Shown: positions 14,708 to 61,659 of the stretch, in pieces
Layout of the letters: every line of letters starts with the position of its first letter
How positions within the stretch are numbered: the first letter of the stretch is position 1
DNA from: a virus
Lineage: Duplodnaviria > Caudoviricetes
DNA: 64,000 nt
Strand: one strand, 5' to 3'
Virus record (IMG/VR): IMGVR_UViG_2908873634_000001
Coordinates: 1 to 64,000 of that record
Translations under genes and position numbers: made by a program
Notes under the pieces: model-generated
Databases searched by the model: none
The model's input: only the letters and a program-made list of their open reading frames with translations
What the model was told of the DNA's origin: nothing

Positions 14708-14758
14708 AGGCCCCGCGCCTTGATCCAAGGGAAGCACACGTTTCACGATTCGATCCCC
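14708..14758 (-). promoter_or_regulatory. Late promoter motif GGGGATC-N30-AAGGCGCGGGGCCT (scaffold)
   Basis: Same boxes and exact spacing as 16651-16701 and 42959-43009. Confidence 0.7.
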
Positions 14759-16629
14759 TGTCGCCTCGTGCGGGGGTTTCCTCGTCGTCGTCGTTGGTTC
14801 CGTCGGTCAGGTTCGTGGTCGGGAACTGGGGGTGGGCGGGGCGGGGTCGGTCTCGATGTCGATGCCGAGGTAGGTGCCGACGGCTTTGGTGGAGTTGGTG
14901 GCGTCGGCCAGGAGCCGGGCCTGTTCGAAGGCGCGGGACTGGATGAGCTTGATCTCGGTGTCGATGTCTCCATGGCCCATCCGGCTTCGGTGAGGGTGCG
15001 GATGGCGGTCTCCAGGGACATGACGCCGGCCTCGAATGCCTTGGTGACCTGCTCGAGGACAGCAGCCTTGTCGGTGGGGGTGTAGCTGCCGAAGGCCAGT
15101 TGTGCGCGCTGGGGGCGGACGCCGGTCCAGTCGGGGTGCTGGCCTGCGAGGGACAGGCGCTGCACGAACTTTAGGAGCAGTGCGTACTTGTGGGCGCGGG
15201 CCAGGCGCATGGCGCCGACGAGGGAGTCGAGGGGCCGAGGGAGATCTCCAGGGCGTAGCCGGAGGGGACCTCGGAGGGGTTGACGGTGCCGAGGGTGACG
15301 GCGGGCAGGCGGGCGATGGTCGCGGCGCGTTCGGAGAGCGCTTCTCGCTGGTTGCGGAGTTCGGCAAGCATGGGGATGTGTCCAGGACGTCCATGCGTCT
15401 GCCGTCGCCGACCTCGATGAGCCTTGCCGGGGGCAATGGTCATCTGGCCCTGCTTGCCGCTGGCGGGCCGGCCGGAGACGGTGATGAGGGGCGATCCGGT
15501 GGTGGCGGAGGCCTTCGCGGTGTCGGTGTCGGTCCCGGAGATCTCGTCGAAGATCTGCAGGACCTTGGCGAGGGATGAGGTGCCCCAGTGTTCCTCGGCG
15601 TCGGGGACCGAGTTGGGGACGTGGATGACCGGGATGAAGTCGAGCATGAGGTCGAGGTGGTCGAGGACTTCGCCGGTGGGGCTGGTGGCATAGTGCGCCT
15701 TGTCCATGGGGAGGTCGTCGACGTCGTGGGGCCTTTGAGGTCGCCGAGGTCCCAGGTGGCGTCGGTGAGGTAGCAGGTGGCGTAGGACGGGGTGTCGTTC
15801 CACGGGTACTGGCGGGCGATGAAGCCGGTGGGGTGGGGAGGTCGCCCTGGCCGAGGACGGGCTGGGCAGGGGTCTCGTCGGTGGGGTCGCTCATGACGGG
15901 GGCGCGGACGGGCCGGCCGTCTCGGTCGACGCCGGAGGCGGTGACGGGACGGATCCAGTCGATCTCGTAGGTGATGCGTCGCAGCCGGGCCTTCAGGCCC
16001 CGTTTCTTGTCTTCGGGGAGTTCCCAGGCGAGGTGGATGCGCTCGGGGTAGTCGGAGCTGTCGCCGTCTTCGCCGAGGACGGGGAAATAGAAGCCGGGGT
16101 CGTAGGTCTTGAGGCGGACGCGTTGCTTGGCGGGGTCCCAGGCCAGGAGGTAGACCCCGTCGCCGAGGCTGACGGCCTTGCGTTCGGCCTGCTGCATCCG
16201 CATGGCGAGCTGCTCGTCCTCGGCCCAGTCCCGCAGGAGAGTCTGGACCCGTTCGGCCATCGCCTGGTCGTTGCCCTCACCCGGGGTGCCGGAGGTCTGT
16301 TCGGCGCCGGGGACGACGATGGTCTGCTCGCGGCCGAGGACGTTGGCGAGGACGGCCTCGACGAACATGCTCGGGTCGCCGTACTCGCGGCGGTCGGTGG
16401 GGCCGGTGTCGCTGGTGAGGTCGGTGAGCTCGGCGGCCTGGTTGCCGACGTAGGCGGCGAGGCTTGTAGGCCGCGAGGCGGCGTTCGTCATCGGCGGGAA
16501 CCCAGGTGGCGGCGGCTTCGGGAAGGCCCGGCGGTGGGGCATGCCAAGGGTGTCGCTGTAGATGGGCTTGTAGTTCGCCCATCCCCAGGCGTCGACGATG
16601 ACGTCCTTGACGCCGCTGAACAGGCCCAC
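14743..16629 (-). CDS. Portal protein, frameshifted
   Basis: ~600 aa; ERKAVSLGDGVYLLAWD...YDPGFYFP...FIPVIHVPN...HWGTSSL...VPSGYAL; first gene of the head operon. Confidence 0.85.
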   Translation of the reverse strand: MGLFSGVKDVIVDAWGWANYKPIYSDTLGMPHRRAFPKPPPPGFPPMTNAASRPTSLAAYVGNQAAELTDLTSDTGPTDRREYGDPSMFVEAVLANVLGREQTIVVPGAEQTSGTPGEGNDQAMAERVQTLLRDWAEDEQLAMRMQQAERKAVSLGDGVYLLAWDPAKQRVRLKTYDPGFYFPVLGEDGDSSDYPERIHLAWELPEDKKRGLKARLRRITYEIDWIRPVTASGVDRDGRPVRAPVMSDPTDETPAQPVLGQGDLPTPPASSPASTRGTTPRPTPPATSPTPPGTSATSKAPRRRRPPHGQGALCHQPHRRSPRPPRPHARLHPGHPRPQLGPRRRGTLGHLIPRQGPADLRRDLRDRHRHREGLRHHRIAPHHRLRPARQRQAGPDDHCPRQGSSRSATADAWTSWTHPHACRTPQPARSALRTRRDHRPPARRHPRHRQPLRGPLRLRPGDLPRPLDSLVGAMRLARAHKYALLLKFVQRLSLAGQHPDWTGVRPQRAQLAFGSYTPTDKAAVLEQVTKAFEAGVMSLETAIRTLTEAGWAMETSTPRSSSSSPAPSNRPGSWPTPPTPPKPSAPTSASTSRPTPPRPPPVPDHEPDRRNQRRRRGNPRTRRQGIES

Positions 16630-16650
16630 GGGGCACACCCCTGTCGTGTC

Positions 16651-16763: not shown

Positions 16764-17027
16764 TCAGAAGATCTGGGCGATGGGGTCAAGGGCAGGGACT
16801 CGGTAGCGGATCTTCTCGACGGAGGAGGCAGGGACGATGTAGACCTCCCACTCCGTCTGGCCGACATGAGCGGGCTCCCCGTTCTGGGGGTCGATGTGGA
16901 GGAAGGCGCCTTCGACGGCCACGCGGACGTTCGTCAGGCTCTTCAGTAGGTCGTGGGCGGCGTTGGGGTTGGGGATGAGCTTGTCGTTCAGGGCGACGTC
17001 GGCGTTACGCCAGCGCAGTTCGGACAT
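16764..17027 (-). CDS. Hypothetical protein
   Basis: 87-aa ORF with GAAGGA RBS; followed by a hairpin near 16719-16748. Confidence 0.65.
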   Translation of the reverse strand: MSELRWRNADVALNDKLIPNPNAAHDLLKSLTNVRVAVEGAFLHIDPQNGEPAHVGQTEWEVYIVPASSVEKIRYRVPALDPIAQIF

Positions 17028-17116
17028 GGAGTGTCCTTCCGGAAGGGGCGACCGGGTTGGTCACGGGTGCTGGCAGCCTTCCATAGGGCACTGACAGTTC
17101 AGGTGGTGCGGGAAAG

Positions 17117-18186
17117 TCAGGCGGAGAGCCAGCGGCCGCGAAGAGCGGCGGTGTTGAAGCCGGGTCCGTAAGCGATGGCGAGACCGTAGGTGCCGTGGCT
17201 GGGCGGATCGGCGTGGGTGCGTTCGAGGACGCGGAGGATGGAGACGCCGCCGAGGTTGCCTTCGTGGGCGAGGGTGTCGACGGAGTGGCGGGTGCCGGTC
17301 TCGTGGAGGCTGATGGCCTTGGCGGTGTCGGTGATGATGCGGGGCTGCCGGGGTGGATCGCGGCCCAGTCGATGCGCTGGCCGTCGAGCCAGTCGAGGAC
17401 GGTGGGCAGGACGTCGTCGGCGGCGGTGAGGGCTTCCTTGGTGGAGTCGAAGTGGAAGCCGTCGGCGCCGATGCGGCCGCTGTAGCGGTCGAGGCTGCCG
17501 GGGAGGACGTACTCCAGGGTGTCGGCGGGGTTGTCCACGCGGAAGGTGGGGCCGGCGGGGGCTCGTCGGTGACGATGACTGCGGCGGCGGAGTCCCCGAA
17601 GAGCGCCTTGTAGATCATCGCTTCGACGGAGGTGTCGTGGTGGTTGTAGACGCTTGAGATGACTTCGGCGGCAACGACGAGGACCTTGGAGCCGGGGCGG
17701 GCGGTGATGTAGTCGATGGCGCGGGTGAGGGCTTGGGTGCCGCCGGCGCAGGCCATGGTGGTGAGGGCGATGCGGGAGACGGTCGGCCTGAGCCCGAGGG
17801 GTGCTATGAGGTGGATGTCGAGGTTGGGGACGGCCCAGCCGGTGGAGTGGGTGGTGATGATCGCGTCGATGTCGGCGTAGCTGCCGGGGTCCGGGCCGGG
17901 GGCAAGGCCTGCGGTGGCGAGGGCTTGGCGGGCGGCGTCGGTCGCGAGGGCCAGGGCGTCGGCGAAGGCGGTGTTGGAGCGGGCCTGGATGTCGGCGGCG
18001 CCGGAGACGGTGGGGGCGGTGAGGGGCGGGTGAAGTAGCGGGTCTGGACGCCGAGGTTGCCGAGGATGCGGGGATGACGGCGGCTTTGGGGTGGTCGGGG
18101 TGGTGGGTGCGGATGTCGTCGATGATCTCGGCGGTGGTGACCTTGTGGGCGGGGAGGGCGGTGTGGGGGCGGTGGATGTGGGGCAC
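17117..18186 (-). CDS. Type III polyketide synthase (chalcone synthase superfamily, PhlD/RppA-like), frameshifted
   Basis: Catalytic triad readable across frames: MACAGG (Cys), IHPGSP (His), GNLGG (Asn); also LFGDSAAA and AYGPGF; GGAGG RBS before GTG at 18186. Confidence 0.9.
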
Positions 18187-18274
18187 GCGGGGCCTCCGGC
18201 ACATGCTGGTCGGGGTGGGCGAGTTCCGGACAACGTACGGCAGATCCGGGCCTCGCGGTCCCCTGACCTGCGAG

Positions 18275-19164
18275 TCAGTTCACCGGGGAGGGCTCGGTGT
18301 CCTGGTTGTGGGCGCGGAGCATGGGCAGTCGGGTGTGCCTTTTGTCCGTTCCGGGGTGGTAGATGAGGATGATGAGGCGGGCGCCGCGGGCGGTGAGGGG
18401 CTGGGCGGCGCACATGGTGACGTGGCCGGGGCCGTAGCGGGCGTGGTCTATGGGGCGTTCGTCGCCGTCGGGGTGGATGTGGGCGCCGCCGGCATGCCAG
18501 ATGGGTGCGAGGTCGGGGTCGCTGGTGACGTCGCGAACGATGCCGTTGAGGACGGGGTCCTCGGGGCGCTGGGTGAGGGCGGCGCGGAGCTGTGGGAGGA
18601 CGAGGGGGCCCAGACGGTGTCCCACTGCAAGAGCATGCGTCGGGCGTTTTCGTCGAGGAGCATCCAGCGCATGGTGTTGGTGGGCACTTGGCGGTCGGGG
18701 AAGAGTTCGGCGAACTGGTCGTTGTGGGCGAGGAGGTCCCAGCGGGCGTCGGTGACGTAGGCGGGGTGGGTGAAGCCGTCGACGGCTTCTTGCCAGACGC
18801 CGGGGACTTCGAGGCCGGAGGAGTCGTAGAGGGCCGGGTGGGTCGCCGAGGCCGGCGTAGCGGTGCAGGGCTTGCCATTCCTGCTCGTTGAGTCCGAAGA
18901 GTTGGGCGATGGAGCGGAGGTAGTCGCTGGAGGGGAGGCTGGTGAAGCGGCCGGACTCGAGGCGGTAGTAGGTGTTCAGGGGCGGTTGGTGAGTTCGTCG
19001 ACTTGCTGCTGGGACAGGCCGGGGCGCGGCGGCCCTTGCCGCGGGGCGGGGAATCCGTGCTCGGCGGGCTGTACGAGGGCCCGTCGTTTGACGAGGAGCG
19101 CTTTCAAGGCTTGCCTGTCTGCGTTCACGGATTCCGTGCCTTCCCGTTGGGTGTGCGTGCGCAT
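18275..19164 (-). CDS. XRE-HTH + MmyB-like (PAS-like ligand-binding) transcriptional regulator
   Basis: GLSQQQVDEL..YYRLESG N-terminal HTH; HPAYVTDARWDLLAHN...NTMRWML...WAPLVLPQLR C-terminal domain. Confidence 0.85.
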
Positions 19165-19821
19165 CGTTCGCTTTTATTAGTGGCTGTTCTACCAGTAAAA
19201 GACCGCCTATGGATATCCCTCTGTTGAAGCGTCAAGCTGTGGTTGGTGAGGCGCTGACCTGCTGGGAAGCTGCGGAAGGTTGCCACACTGCAACAAACCA
19301 GGGGTTTCCTGCCCGATGTCGGGTGTGAATCCGTCACATCGCAGCAGAAGGACTCTTGGCGCCCTCGTCGAGGCCCCGGCAGGTGGATAGGAACAGCGAC
19401 GCGACCCGTGGCTGGGAAACCACGGATTTCGCAGCACGTGGTTGTTCCGATTCGCTTGAGCCGGGGCTTTGAGGGTCTATCAGCTACGGTCGGCGCCCGA
19501 CGGCTGCCCTTCGCGGGGTGTGCGTGGCGCTGGCTGTGTGAGACCGGCCGCGGTGCTCATCCCCGGCGCTGGCGGTCGTCCCGGGTGGCCCCGGACAGCA
19601 TCCCCTACCTGCTGTCCGGGGCCTTCCCAACCCAGGCGCGGGTGGTGGGGTGCTGGGTCCGAGGCACGGTGGGCCTCCCTGCTGAGTGCCGACCGCCCCG
19701 TGGGAGGGGGGCGGCTGGGGCGGCACGGTCCGCCTGCCCCGGAAACCGCCTTGGGCACGCGCTTTCACTCCGAACGAGTGACCGGGGTGGGTGTGTAGGC
19801 GGGGTGGGACGGGCAAGCGGT

Positions 19822-43612: not shown

Positions 43613-45151
43613 ACGCCGCCTCTCCATCGAAGAGCAGTACCGCTCTCTGCCCGCAGAGCAACGGCGCCGGGTCATCGCCCGCGCCCGGCCCGAGACCCGC
43701 ATCAAGCTCGCCCACGTGGAACGCCAGATGGCCATGGACCGCTCCCCGGGCGCGCTCGCCGCAGTCCTCACCGGGGCCGGGAGAAGCAGGCCCCGCACCT
43801 CGACATGATCGACAGCGCATTCCGCCGCATCGCGGCCGGGGAACGACTCCAGGTGATGCTGACCTGCCCACCAAGACATGGGAAGTCTCAGCGCGCCTCT
43901 CGCTGGGGACCCCTGTGGTACCTGCGCCGCAACCCCGAGCACCGCGTCATGATCGCCTGCTACGGTGCCGACCTCGCCGACGACCACGGACGCTGGATCC
44001 GCGACCAGCTCAAGGAGTACTCACCCGCCCTCGGCATCAAACTCCACCCCGCCTCCCACGCCGCGAACCGATTCGACCTCGAGCAGCGCCGCGGGTCCAG
44101 CGTCCGCGGCGGCATGGTCACCGCCGGCGTCGGAGGGGCGCTGAACGGCAAGGGCTTCAACCTCGGAATTATCGATGACCCATTTAAGGGTCACGACGAC
44201 GCCGCCAGCCCTGCCCAGCGTGAACGAATCTGGGAGTGGTACCGGTCCGTGTTCTTCACCCGCCGCGCCCCCGGCGCCTCCCTCATCCTCATCAACACCC
44301 GCTGGCACGAAGACGACCTCTCCGGCCGACTCCTCAAACACGAACCCCACCGCTGGCTCCAGATCGACCTCCCCGCCCTCGCCGACAGCCCCACCGACCC
44401 CTCAACCGCACCATCGGCGACCCCCTCTGGCCCGAGCAATACGACCTCGACGAACTCACCGACATCCGCGAATCCGTCGGCGAACGCGTCTGGTACGCCC
44501 TCTACCAGCAAAACCCCGCCCCTCGAAGGCGGCGTGTGGAAGTGGGCGTGGATCACCAGCCACCGCATCACCCCCGAAGCCTGGCGTGGCATCAACCCCA
44601 CCCGCGTCATCGTCGCCGTCGACCACGCCGGCGGCGACACCATGCGCAACGACGAAGTCGGCCTCGTCTGCGCCGCCCGAGACGACGACGGCCACATGTA
44701 CATCCTCGACGACCGCTCCCGCAGCATGGGCGCCGACACCTGGGGCACCGAAGTCTGTCGCCTCGCCATCGAACGCCAAGCGGACGCGATCGTGGTGGAG
44801 AAGAACTTCGGTGGCGACATGGCGTCCCAGATCGTCACCCAGGCATGGCGCGAGCTCGAGCGCGACGGCGAAACGAACCGGATGCTCATGCCGGCGATCG
44901 TCGAAGTCCACGCCAAGCAGGGCAAGCGGCTGCGGGCCGAGCCGATCGCGCAGCTCTACAAGCAGGGCAAGGTCCACCACGTCGACGAGCACACCGAGCT
45001 CGAAGGCCAGCTCGTCACGTGGATCCCGGGCATGGACTCCCCGGACCGTATGGACGCCGCGGTGCACGCCTTGACCGAGCTTGCGGATCCGGCTGCGGTG
45101 TCGACGGGCACGGGCTCGTACACCGACCAGCGACTCGCGGGCCGCCGATGA
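43596..45151 (+). CDS. Terminase large subunit
   Basis: PPRHGKS Walker A, GIIDDP Walker B, TRWHEDDL, nuclease VAVD...VEKNFGG...SPDRMDA. Confidence 0.92.
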
Positions 45152-60701: not shown

Positions 60702-61659
60702 GGGGTGGCCGGGTAGTCGTCGTGGATGCGTCCGTCGAGTTCGCGGCCGGCGGCCTTCTTGCTGACGCGCTTCATTTCGACGCGGTGGCCGAGGTCGTCG
60801 ACCGGTCGCCGACGGCGATGTTGCTCTTGGTGCGGGGCCGCCGATGACGAGATAGTCGGTGGGGATGTAGGCGCCCCACTGCTTGAACAGGTAGGGGATG
60901 CGTTCTTGGGCGCACTGGTCGCGGAGGGTGCGGAACCAGTCGGGGTGTGCGGGGCGGGCGCCGTGGCCGGACTCTCCACCTGCGACAACCCAGCGGAGGG
61001 CCTTGATGCGGCCGCTGTCGCAGTGGGTGTCGGCGCAGGGTCCGCAGGCTTCGTCGTGTCCTTCGCCGTTACAGCAGGGGCAGGGCTTCCAGGTGTAGTC
61101 GGTGATGTCGATGGGGCCGAGGAGGGGTTCGGCGCTGATCCAGCGGATGGTGGCGGGGGTGTCGAGGAGGGCGGGGATGCGGATGTCGGCCCACTGCTGG
61201 TTCTCGACGGAGACGCCGAGCCACACGTTGGGCAGGGGCCAGGTCCAGGCCTCGGTGTGAGGCCCTTGCCGATGGCGCGGGAGCGGACCTGGTCGACGAA
61301 GGCCGGGTCGGCGAGGAGGCTGCGCATGCGGGCGTGCCGCTTGGTGAGGACCTGGAAGGTGTGACGGGGGCGGCAGCCATGACGGCGAAGATGTCGGCGA
61401 TCCAGGCGCGGTCGATGCCGGCGTGGAAGAGGTCGCTCATGGAGTTGACGAACACCTTGGCGGGCTTGCGCCAGGTGAGGGGCGTTGACCTTGTCGGGTC
61501 GGACCTGGATGTCGAAGCCGTGGGGAAGGCAGCCCCGCCGCGGAAGCGTTCGGCGATGGTGCGGGCGTAGCAGTTGTCACACCCAGCAGAGATCTGGGTG
61601 CACCCCGTAACCGCATTCCACGTGCGGTCGGTCCACTCGATGTCCGTCTTGTCAGCCAC
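60698..61659 (-). CDS. DUF5131 (gp37/gp68-like) protein
   Basis: IEWTDRTWNAVTGCTQISAGCDNCYA, FVNSMSDLFH, WLGVSVENQ, SAEPLLG, WVVAGGESG, FKQWG. Confidence 0.85.

What the first reader, a model, noticed from the sequence alone, without database searches (positions are those of the whole stretch)
17117..19164. Phage-borne type III PKS paired with an MmyB-like ligand-binding regulator: candidate small-molecule signalling system
Seen: a two-gene co-oriented unit, XRE/MmyB-like regulator then a type III PKS with intact Cys-His-Asn motifs, one small gene upstream of the portal promoter. No tailoring, export or resistance genes are adjacent. Known: stand-alone Streptomyces type III PKSs (RppA, Gcs, SrsA) make diffusible pyrones or phenols, and MmyB-family regulators carry a PAS-like lipid-binding domain. 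Inference: a synthase plus cognate receptor on a conjugative phage element could be a polyketide-based communication circuit. It could control the lysis/lysogeny/transfer decision, analogous to peptide arbitrium, or manipulate host germination. I know of no characterised example in a phage.
Basis: partly seen in the sequence, partly recalled or inferred. Interest (0 to 1): 0.9.

Follow-up and report, generated by a model that had tools for sequence, protein, structure and literature searches.

The report
Violapyrone-type synthase cassette on phage-plasmid
The regulator and small polyketide synthase are real, but they are another copy of the already studied two-gene "vio" unit that makes alkyl-pyrone compounds, carried as cargo by a Streptomyces phage that also lives as a plasmid.

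Summary
At 17117-19164 (minus strand) lie an XRE/MmyB-like regulator and a type III polyketide synthase with Cys, His and Asn in place. One small gene separates them from the portal gene.

Both genes are split by single-base frame changes (three and four). These are assembly errors. The essential rpoB is in six pieces, G/C runs of six or more are nearly absent genome-wide, and conserved genes of the element change frame about once per 600 nt.

[quoted passage not shown] The pair is an orthologue of the characterised vioB-vioA cluster (Huang 2016). That cluster lies on a ~85-kb plasmid like pCQ3 and pCQ4. VioA makes violapyrones and VioB represses it. The window synthase is 66% identical to pCQ3.110c, which the paper reports as 95% identical to VioA.

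The cassette is in 25 of 33 pZL12-type plasmids and 25 IMG/VR contigs. In 400 Streptomyces species genomes, however, only 3 of 33 loci had pZL12 genes nearby.

Its conserved promoter block occurs once per element. Nothing ties it to the phage's life-cycle decisions.

This scan reached the same verdict earlier on other DNA. It is a new member of a known kind.

The parts
18275..19164 (-). vioB-like regulator: XRE helix-turn-helix plus MmyB-like PAS-type ligand-binding domain. It reads in 4 frame pieces: 18976-19164, about 18827-18976, about 18604-18828 and 18275-18604. The likely true start is the GTG at 19128.
   Evidence: Pfam PF17765 on window pieces. Piece coordinates. Start inferred from the alignment of 34 upstream regions. 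A model of the G139 orthologue best matches 3PXP.
17117..18204 (-). vioA-like type III polyketide synthase. It reads in 5 frame pieces: 18070-18204, 18023-18070, 17559-18020, 17341-17553 and 17117-17341. The Cys, His and Asn motifs and the GPGF loop are all present.
   Evidence: tblastn with intact relatives. Pfam. PDB 1U0M at E = 1.4e-41 with an intact relative. Motif coordinates. Invariant columns in the 14-sequence alignment.
18205..18274 (-). Gap between regulator and synthase, 70 nt here. In relatives the extracted stretch, which includes 60 flanking nt, is 119-302 nt.
   Evidence: No k-mer clearly exceeded shuffles here.
19174..19228 (-). Conserved AT-rich promoter or operator-like block upstream of the regulator. 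It is shared by chromosomal and phage-plasmid copies.
   Evidence: Alignment of 27 loci. An nhmmer profile hits it once in C2 (E = 0.003) and once in pZL12 (E = 1e-8), and nothing else at E up to 10.
19587..19623 (.). Perfect 14-nt inverted repeat with a 9-nt loop, 423 nt upstream of the regulator ATG. It is probably the terminator of the preceding gene, so the cassette would be its own transcription unit.
   Evidence: the repeat finder pair I13. The terminator role is inferred; there is no T-tract.
16764..17027 (-). Small gene (87 aa) between synthase and portal; homologue of pZL12.101.
   Evidence: ORF list. tblastn 43% identity.
14743..16638 (-). Portal gene (context). It is itself read in 5 frame pieces.
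43695..45148 (+). Large terminase gene (context), 65% identical to pZL12.67c. It lies 27 kb from the portal on the other strand.

Best explanation
The pair is an orthologue of the vioB-vioA cluster.

How it works: the synthase takes a fatty-acid-derived acyl starter and extender units and releases 6-alkyl-4-hydroxy-alpha-pyrones of the violapyrone type, with no other enzyme needed. The upstream MmyB-like regulator keeps production low. In the studied strain the regulator is in turn held up by the developmental regulator WblA.

The cassette has its own conserved promoter region. It is self-contained cargo of a pZL12/pCQ3-like phage-plasmid. It moves between such elements and other replicons, and it probably benefits the carrier cell through a bioactive or signalling pyrone rather than steering the phage cycle.

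The frame breaks are sequencing errors.

Shown here: gene identity, family membership, conservation of the pairing, the type of element, and the artefactual nature of the breaks.
Taken from papers: product, repression, and sufficiency of vioA alone.
Inferred: that a 66%-identical enzyme makes the same class of product, and that its role is cargo.
For: - The window synthase is 66% identical (228 of 345 aligned positions) to pCQ3.110c. PMC4924298 Table 1 gives pCQ3.110c as 95% identical to VioA, and VioB as 95% identical to pCQ4.19c.
- pCQ3 and pCQ4 carry pZL12-type terminases, at 67% and 80.5% identity.
- In the 74-row tree the window sits in a 30-row clade (SH-aLRT 90) that includes pCQ3.
- From PMC4924298 passages: a vioA knockout abolishes violapyrone B, a vioB knockout raises it about eightfold, and the flanking orfs are dispensable.
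- From PMC5898002 passages: vioA alone gives violapyrones in S. coelicolor M1146.
- Pairing is conserved in 31 of 33 loci and 22 of 22 loci.
- Element identity.
- Breaks are artefacts.
- The promoter block is single-copy.
- The cassette also sits in ordinary chromosomal contexts.
Against: - VioA's own sequence was not in hand, so the link runs through pCQ3.110c and the paper's stated 95%.
- At 66% identity, starter choice and chain length may differ.
- No reads were available to prove that the frames are open.
- A cargo role is a default reading, not a result. Retention in 25 of 33 pZL12-type plasmids, and placement directly upstream of the head genes in three elements (window, L049, L098), could reflect a function for the element itself.
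- The nhmmer profile covers a whole promoter block, so a short operator reused elsewhere could be missed.
Confidence: 0.78

Rival explanations
1. A signal-and-receptor circuit of the phage-plasmid. The pyrone accumulates with carrier density, binds the regulator's PAS-like domain, and so tunes the lysis, plasmid-state or transfer decision, or host development.
For: - The regulator has a ligand-binding domain; its best fold match is the fatty-acid-bound MltR, 3PXP (PMC3406030 passages).
- Violapyrones resemble photopyrone signals. Expressing a weak VioA variant switched on silent metabolites in other hosts (PMC6024985 and PMC12113368 passages).
- The cassette is kept in most pZL12-type plasmids.
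- vioB expression depends on WblA.
Against: - The same cassette with the same promoter block sits in chromosomes among metabolic genes.
- No second copy of that block was found in C2 or pZL12.
- 8 of 33 pZL12-type plasmids were not among the listed synthase matches.
- No ligand is known for VioB.
Confidence: 0.08
2. A weapon or defence for the carrier. The pyrones inhibit competing Gram-positive bacteria or superinfecting phages, as with other phage-borne biosynthetic clusters.
For: - Violapyrones have anti-MRSA activity; the best MIC reported is 25 ug/mL (PMC4924298 passage).
- Type III PKS genes were reported only in plasmid prophages among actinobacterial prophages (PMC10023795 passage).
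Against: - The reported activity is weak.
- The cassette is repressed under laboratory conditions.
- PMC10023795 found no cluster for known anti-phage molecules in prophages (abstract).
- Nothing was tested here.
Confidence: 0.12
3. A decaying, truly frameshifted remnant with no function in this strain.
For: Seven frame breaks in 2 kb as assembled.
Against: - The same break density is found in rpoB and in portal, capsid and tail genes.
- There is a genome-wide lack of long G/C runs.
- Each synthase break is a one-base deficit at a C run.
- The in-frame pieces keep 64-79% identity to intact relatives, with no stop codons inside them.
Confidence: 0.05

Closest known systems
vioA-vioB violapyrone cluster of Streptomyces somaliensis SCSIO ZH66 (Huang et al. 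2016, PMC4924298; Hou et al. 2018, PMC5898002)
   Same: - Two-gene unit of an XRE-type regulator and a type III PKS.
- Located on a circular plasmid of about 85-93 kb whose neighbours match pCQ3 and pCQ4 genes.
- No tailoring genes.
- The window synthase is 66% identical to the 95%-identical proxy pCQ3.110c and falls in the same tree clade.
   Different: - This is a more distant copy.
- The cassette lies directly upstream of the portal gene.
- The 2016 paper does not contain the word 'phage' (0 occurrences).
- Product and repression are untested for this copy.
pZL12.99 / pZL12.100 of Streptomyces plasmid-phage pZL12 (GQ919031), and the pSLE1 type III PKS (PMC4487206)
   Same: - Same element family, with head, tail, portal, terminase and ParAB genes in synteny.
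- Same pair, followed by the same small gene (pZL12.101).
- DNA is 73% identical over 69% of the query.
   Different: In pZL12 the pair lies 25 kb from the portal. Here a segment of about 28 kb is inverted, so the pair abuts the portal and the terminase is far away.
Germicidin synthase Gcs (3V7I) and THN synthase RppA (1U0M) of S. coelicolor
   Same: Closest solved structures by sequence (E = 6e-36 and 1.4e-41). PMC5898002 places VioA with Cpz6, DpyA and Gcs among the pyrone-forming enzymes.
   Different: These are far more distant than the vio relatives, and neither was found here paired with this regulator.
MmyB / MltR family regulators (PF17765; 3PXP; Xu et al. 2012, PMC3406030)
   Same: XRE helix-turn-helix plus a PAS-like ligand-binding domain; sits next to the gene it controls.
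   Different: - Per the vio paper it acts as a negative regulator, whereas MmyB is an activator.
- It is co-oriented upstream of its target. In 15 of 16 S. coelicolor paralogues the arrangement is divergent.
- Sequence similarity to 3PXP is marginal (E = 0.0044).
Arbitrium and photopyrone (PpyS/PluR) communication systems
   Same: Only the idea: a small diffusible product plus a ligand-binding regulator on one locus.
   Different: No evidence of sensing of the product and no link to a lysis-lysogeny switch. The components are unrelated.

Membership tests
Type III polyketide synthase (chalcone-synthase-like) | Thiolase-fold KS with Chal_sti_synt / ACP_syn_III domains | tested here: met
   Window piece 17559-18026: PF00195 at 75 bits and PF08545 at 43 bits. 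An intact relative matches 1U0M at E = 1.4e-41.
Type III polyketide synthase (chalcone-synthase-like) | Catalytic Cys-His-Asn triad and GFGPG-type loop | tested here: met
   Motifs located in the window. C, H, N and GPGF are invariant in 14 of 14 relatives. They align to the matching motifs of 1U0M; that these are the catalytic residues of THNS is recalled.
vioA-vioB violapyrone cluster | Orthology of the synthase to VioA | tested here: met
   66% identical (228 of 345) to pCQ3.110c, stated by the paper to be 95% identical to VioA. Same 30-row clade, SH-aLRT 90. VioA's own sequence was not compared.
vioA-vioB violapyrone cluster | Adjacent XRE-type regulator forming a two-gene cluster without tailoring genes | tested here: met
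   Regulator directly upstream and co-oriented. Same layout in pCQ3, across the record origin. Neighbours are phage genes.
vioA-vioB violapyrone cluster | Product is a 3-methyl-4-hydroxy-6-alkyl-alpha-pyrone; the regulator represses production | not testable with these tools
   Known only for the S. somaliensis copy (PMC4924298 and PMC5898002 passages).
MmyB-like regulator (PF17765) | N-terminal XRE HTH plus C-terminal PAS-like ligand-binding domain | tested here: met
   PF17765 on two window pieces. HTH_3 plus PF17765 (57 bits) on an intact relative. A model of the G139 orthologue (pLDDT 82) best matches 3PXP (E = 1e-8), followed by PAS domains.
MmyB-like regulator (PF17765) | Divergent arrangement with the target gene (typical, not obligatory) | tested here: not met
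   Co-oriented upstream in 31 of 33 loci. The typical arrangement is described in PMC3406030.
pZL12-like phage-plasmid | Tailed-phage head, tail and packaging genes together with plasmid partition genes on one replicon of about 85-95 kb | tested here: met
   C2 is 92,592 bp. Tape measure, tail, capsid, portal, terminase, ParA and ParB match pZL12 at 37-82% identity, in synteny. Lytic and plasmid cycles are known for pZL12 only from a cited title; that paper is not held.
Phage communication system (arbitrium-like) | The receptor controls a lysis-lysogeny regulator of the phage | tested here: inconclusive
   No second copy of the cassette's promoter block in C2 or pZL12. Binding sites of the regulator are unknown, so this is weak evidence.

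The most novel reading that the evidence does not exclude
The vio cassette is kept by pZL12-type phage-plasmids because the pyrone is a density or developmental signal. On this reading it is read by the MmyB-like regulator or by host receptors, and it couples the element's switch between plasmid state, lytic growth and transfer to the state of the colony. That would make it a polyketide counterpart of peptide arbitrium. The placement directly upstream of the head genes in three elements would then matter.
Probability: 0.07. Interest if true: 0.8.

Novelty: new member of a known kind. Interest (0 to 1): 0.27.

Why it matters
In itself this is one more copy of a characterised two-gene pyrone cluster on a known family of phage-plasmids, in a poorly polished assembly.

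What remains open, and is now easy to test, is why a virus that doubles as a plasmid keeps a polyketide synthase. The cassette is in 25 of 33 pZL12-type plasmids and 25 virus-classified contigs. It swaps between these elements and other replicons at least six times on the tree.

None of the vio papers whose passages I read mentions phage. The 2016 paper has 0 occurrences of the word. A search for 'violapyrone' plus 'phage' gave 6 papers, none on this by title.

The phage-plasmids are probably a main vehicle for spreading this cluster among Streptomyces.

Tried and rejected
- Sequencing runs: none was listed for the 2.6-kb stretch. Read laying was therefore not used, and the frame breaks could not be checked against reads.
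- tblastx of flanks against C2 and pZL12 matched everywhere in this high-GC DNA and did not discriminate. I replaced it with tblastn of the 112 annotated pZL12 proteins. As a control, this flagged 9 of 9 known plasmid loci and 15 of 24 IMG/VR loci.
- Recurrence of 12- and 14-mers from the regulator's upstream region elsewhere in C2 gave only scattered matches. One exception is a 14-nt exact match of the hairpin loop region at about 60.9 kb.
- k-mer enrichment in the regulator-synthase gap did not clearly exceed shuffles.
- TTA codons in the regulator (8 of 24 ORF calls) were an artefact. Seven lie in an N-terminal extension upstream of the conserved MNK start.
- No significant inverted repeats were found at the borders of the 28-kb inversion; the best was 11 nt at E = 0.13.
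- phmmer of the regulator against PDB gave 0 matches. The profile reached 3PXP only at E = 0.0044.
- My first tree (51 rows) suggested a single capture from the chromosome. Adding 23 IMG/VR rows put phage-linked copies in several places, including near the base. I drop any claim about the direction of transfer.
- The pZL12 paper (PMC2897331) is not held. Supplementary tables of PMC5898002 (the 21 vioAB loci) and PMC10023795 were not seen and may bear on the distribution.
- The G040 match (a 1.1-kb contig) was dropped from the context counts. L122 and L124 were dropped from the IMG/VR counts as distant or non-matching.
Full report
**What is there.** Three-frame translation of the minus strand of 16950-19500 shows two co-oriented genes.

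The upstream gene runs from 19164 to 18275. An ATG is at 19164; the start shared with relatives is the GTG at 19128. It is an XRE-type regulator with an MmyB-like ligand-binding domain. Two window pieces hit Pfam PF17765 at 44.6 and 30.6 bits against a cut-off of 26.3. An intact relative adds HTH_3.

The downstream gene (18204-17117) is a type III polyketide synthase. Its 156-aa middle piece hits Chal_sti_synt_N at 75 bits. An intact relative matches the THN synthase 1U0M at E = 1.4e-41 and germicidin synthase 3V7I at 6e-36. The Cys, His, Asn and GPGF motifs are all present at the coordinates found. They are invariant in 14 of 14 relatives.

An 87-aa gene (16764-17027) follows, and then the portal gene (14743-16638).

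**The frame breaks are assembly errors.** As assembled, the regulator reads in four pieces and the synthase in five. Against the closest intact relative, each of the four synthase breaks is a one-base deficit in or next to a run of C on the coding strand. This is not special to these genes:
- The window is contig C2 (92,592 bp) of a two-contig genome whose marker-gene completeness is only 55.8%.
- rpoB on the chromosome is matched in six pieces.
- G/C runs of six or more occur at 0.05 per kb on the chromosome and 0.03 per kb on C2. Two clean relatives have 0.60 and 0.40 per kb.
- Nineteen conserved pZL12 proteins laid on C2 show 26 frame switches over 5,182 aligned residues, about one per 600 nt. 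The portal has four and the capsid three.

No sequencing run could be listed, so this rests on these indirect but consistent signs.

**What the element is.** The 2.6-kb stretch matches Streptomyces phage ZL12 (GQ919031) at 73% identity over 69%. The match lies under 'transcriptional regulator' pZL12.99 and 'type III polyketide synthase' pZL12.100. It also matches 47 plasmid records, 45 from Streptomyces and 2 from Kitasatospora; most of the listed ones are 85-95 kb.

C2 shares tape measure, tail, capsid, portal, terminase, ParA, ParB and many small genes with pZL12, in synteny. There is one difference. In pZL12 the terminase sits next to the portal and the pair is 25 kb away. In C2 a segment of about 28 kb is inverted, so the pair and its small follower gene abut the portal, and the terminase lies at 43.7-45.1 kb on the other strand. 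The same synthase-then-portal order is seen in a 90-kb contig of another species genome (L049) and in an IMG/VR contig (L098). It is therefore a real variant and not a misassembly. I found no significant inverted repeats at its borders.

**What the pair is.** A search for the plasmid names pCQ3 and pCQ4 turned up Huang et al. 2016 (PMC4924298; outline and passages read). In S. somaliensis SCSIO ZH66 a circular plasmid of about 85 kb carries vioA and vioB.
- vioA is a type III PKS of 350 aa, 95% identical to pCQ3.110c (WP_012840496.1).
- vioB is an XRE-family regulator of 272 aa, 95% identical to pCQ4.19c.
- Deleting vioA abolishes violapyrone B, and deleting vioB raises it about eightfold.
- The flanking orfs are dispensable, so the cluster is these two genes.

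Hou et al. 2018 (PMC5898002, passages) obtained violapyrones from vioA alone in S. coelicolor M1146. They placed VioA with Cpz6, DpyA and Gcs, and found vioAB loci in 21 more genomes, 'most of them located in a linear plasmid'.

WP_012840496.1 is the protein in my locus L093. The window synthase is 66% identical to it, 228 of 345 aligned positions over the five pieces. pCQ3 and pCQ4 both carry pZL12-type terminases (67% and 80.5% identity), so the characterised cluster sits on the same kind of phage-plasmid. The word 'phage' does not occur in the 2016 paper.

Two other papers had noted the gene. The pSLE1 paper says the type III PKS of pSLE1 and pZL12 has no biosynthetic neighbours (PMC4487206). 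A survey of actinobacterial prophages found type III PKS clusters only in plasmid prophages (PMC10023795).

**How tightly the two genes go together.** In a sample of 400 Streptomyces species genomes, 30 genomes hold 34 places with a synthase of at least 45% identity. Below that there is a gap down to the common 31-35% type III PKSs. I fetched 33 of the 34; one 1.1-kb contig was dropped.
- The regulator lies directly upstream and co-oriented in 31 of the 33. In one of these only its C-terminal half matches.
- In IMG/VR, 25 loci hold a synthase of at least 44% identity. The regulator is upstream in 22 of them, and the other 3 have no sequence upstream.
- More distant synthases (at most 42% identity) lack it.

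**Phage-linked or not.** Of 33 listed Streptomyces or Kitasatospora plasmids with a pZL12-type terminase (at least 54.8% identity), 25 appear among the 60 listed synthase matches. The other 8 do not. The weakest listed rows are near 31% identity, so a close copy would have been listed, but I did not check those 8 directly.

In the species-genome sample, by contrast, only 3 of 33 loci had any other pZL12 protein within about 10 kb. A control flagged 9 of 9 known plasmid loci and 15 of 24 IMG/VR loci with only 3-kb flanks. At least five loci lie on replicons of 7.4-8.9 Mb (L052, L067, L072, L073, L074). The neighbours I annotated are ordinary cell genes:
- In nine species the order is regulator, synthase, GNAT acetyltransferase, among isochorismatase, acyl-CoA dehydrogenase and GFO/IDH/MocA genes.
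- In three of a further four species the order is regulator, synthase, TetR, SDR, acyltransferase-3; in the fourth (L068) only the acyltransferase-3 was called.

**Tree.** In a quick maximum-likelihood tree of 74 synthases, the window groups with three phage-plasmid and two IMG/VR rows (SH-aLRT 99). That group lies inside a 30-row clade (SH-aLRT 90) with 26 phage-linked rows, including pZL12 and pCQ3, and 4 others.

Phage-linked copies also lie in three further places, one near the base. The label needs at least 6 changes among 67 rows. An earlier 51-row tree had suggested a single capture from the chromosome. The larger tree does not support any direction. The root is uncertain, and the tool warns that long branches meet.

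The cassette plainly moves between phage-plasmids and other replicons.

**Regulatory region.** A perfect 14-nt hairpin (19587-19623) precedes a 423-nt leader. Upstream regions of 34 loci can be aligned. They share an AT-rich block about 40-75 nt before the conserved start, in chromosomal and phage-plasmid copies alike. A profile of that block over 27 loci finds it once in C2 (19174-19228, E = 0.003) and once in pZL12 (E = 1e-8), and nowhere else at E up to 10.

So nothing seen here connects the regulator to late, immunity or transfer promoters. The test is weak, because the regulator's true site is unknown.

**The regulator's family.** A model of the G139 orthologue (pLDDT 82) best matches MltR, 3PXP (E = 1e-8), and then PAS domains. 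Sequence similarity to 3PXP is marginal.

Xu et al. 2012 (PMC3406030, passages) report that MmyB-like genes usually lie divergent from their target. Here the arrangement is co-oriented. In addition, per the vio paper, the protein acts negatively.

**Signal or weapon.** The vio authors themselves proposed that violapyrones may be signals like photopyrones. They showed that a weak VioA variant switches on silent metabolites in a Brevibacterium and in a Streptomyces (PMC6024985 and PMC12113368, passages). Violapyrones also have modest anti-MRSA activity. Neither bears directly on the phage.

A search for 'violapyrone' plus 'phage' listed 6 papers, none on this by title. 'MmyB-like' plus 'type III' gave 0 papers. 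'Phage-plasmid' plus 'type III polyketide synthase' gave only the prophage survey.

**Earlier notes of this scan.** A look-up by sequence, made after I had reached the vio papers, showed that the same pair was flagged on other genomes. Two follow-up agents had reached the same verdict (e1-6205644, e1-6205650). That repeats my reading; it is not independent evidence.

**Verdict.** This is a new, poorly assembled member of a known cassette on a known family of phage-plasmids. The open question is what the cassette does for the element.

Noticed in passing
whole genome G000 (C1 and C2); e.g. C1:4821276-4824582: The assembly carries systematic single-base errors at G/C runs. rpoB is in six pieces, runs of 6 or more are almost absent, and completeness is 55.8% for two contigs. 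Any frameshift or pseudogene call in this genome is suspect.
   Followed up: yes
window 16640-45200: A segment of about 28 kb is inverted relative to pZL12. This separates the terminase (43695-45148, + strand) from the portal (14743-16638, - strand) and puts the vio cassette directly upstream of the head genes. The same order occurs in L049 and L098. No significant inverted repeats were found at the borders.
   Followed up: partly
plasmid records NC_013449, NZ_CP032230, NZ_CP108353, NZ_CP134214, NZ_CP109524, NC_019307: In several pZL12-type plasmids the large terminase matches in two pieces about 1 kb apart, with an annotated HNH (or, in one, LAGLIDADG) homing endonuclease under the match. This looks like an intein or intron-type insertion in the terminase gene.
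   Followed up: no
L053-L059, L061, L063 and L065-L068: Chromosomal versions of the cassette have gained co-oriented downstream genes. Nine species have a GNAT acetyltransferase. Three of four other species have TetR, SDR and acyltransferase-3. These may modify or export the pyrone.
   Followed up: partly
L111-L113, L115, L116, L118-L120 (IMG/VR contigs of 9-99 kb): A second, divergent clade of the regulator-synthase pair (46-53% identity) sits on virus-classified contigs with no pZL12 protein match within 3 kb. This may be another phage lineage carrying the cassette.
   Followed up: partly
window about 19400-19440, and the matching place in 20 or more loci (alignment): About 250 nt upstream of the regulator, many loci share an inverted repeat of the type TTCCG-N-CGGAA followed by ATAC. 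In the window it reads CCGTGG-N8-CCACGG. It was seen by eye only and could be a second binding site or an RNA hairpin.
   Followed up: no
window 19597-19611 and 60885-60901: The loop and part of the stem of the hairpin upstream of the cassette recur as an exact 14-nt match on the other strand at about 60.9 kb.
   Followed up: no
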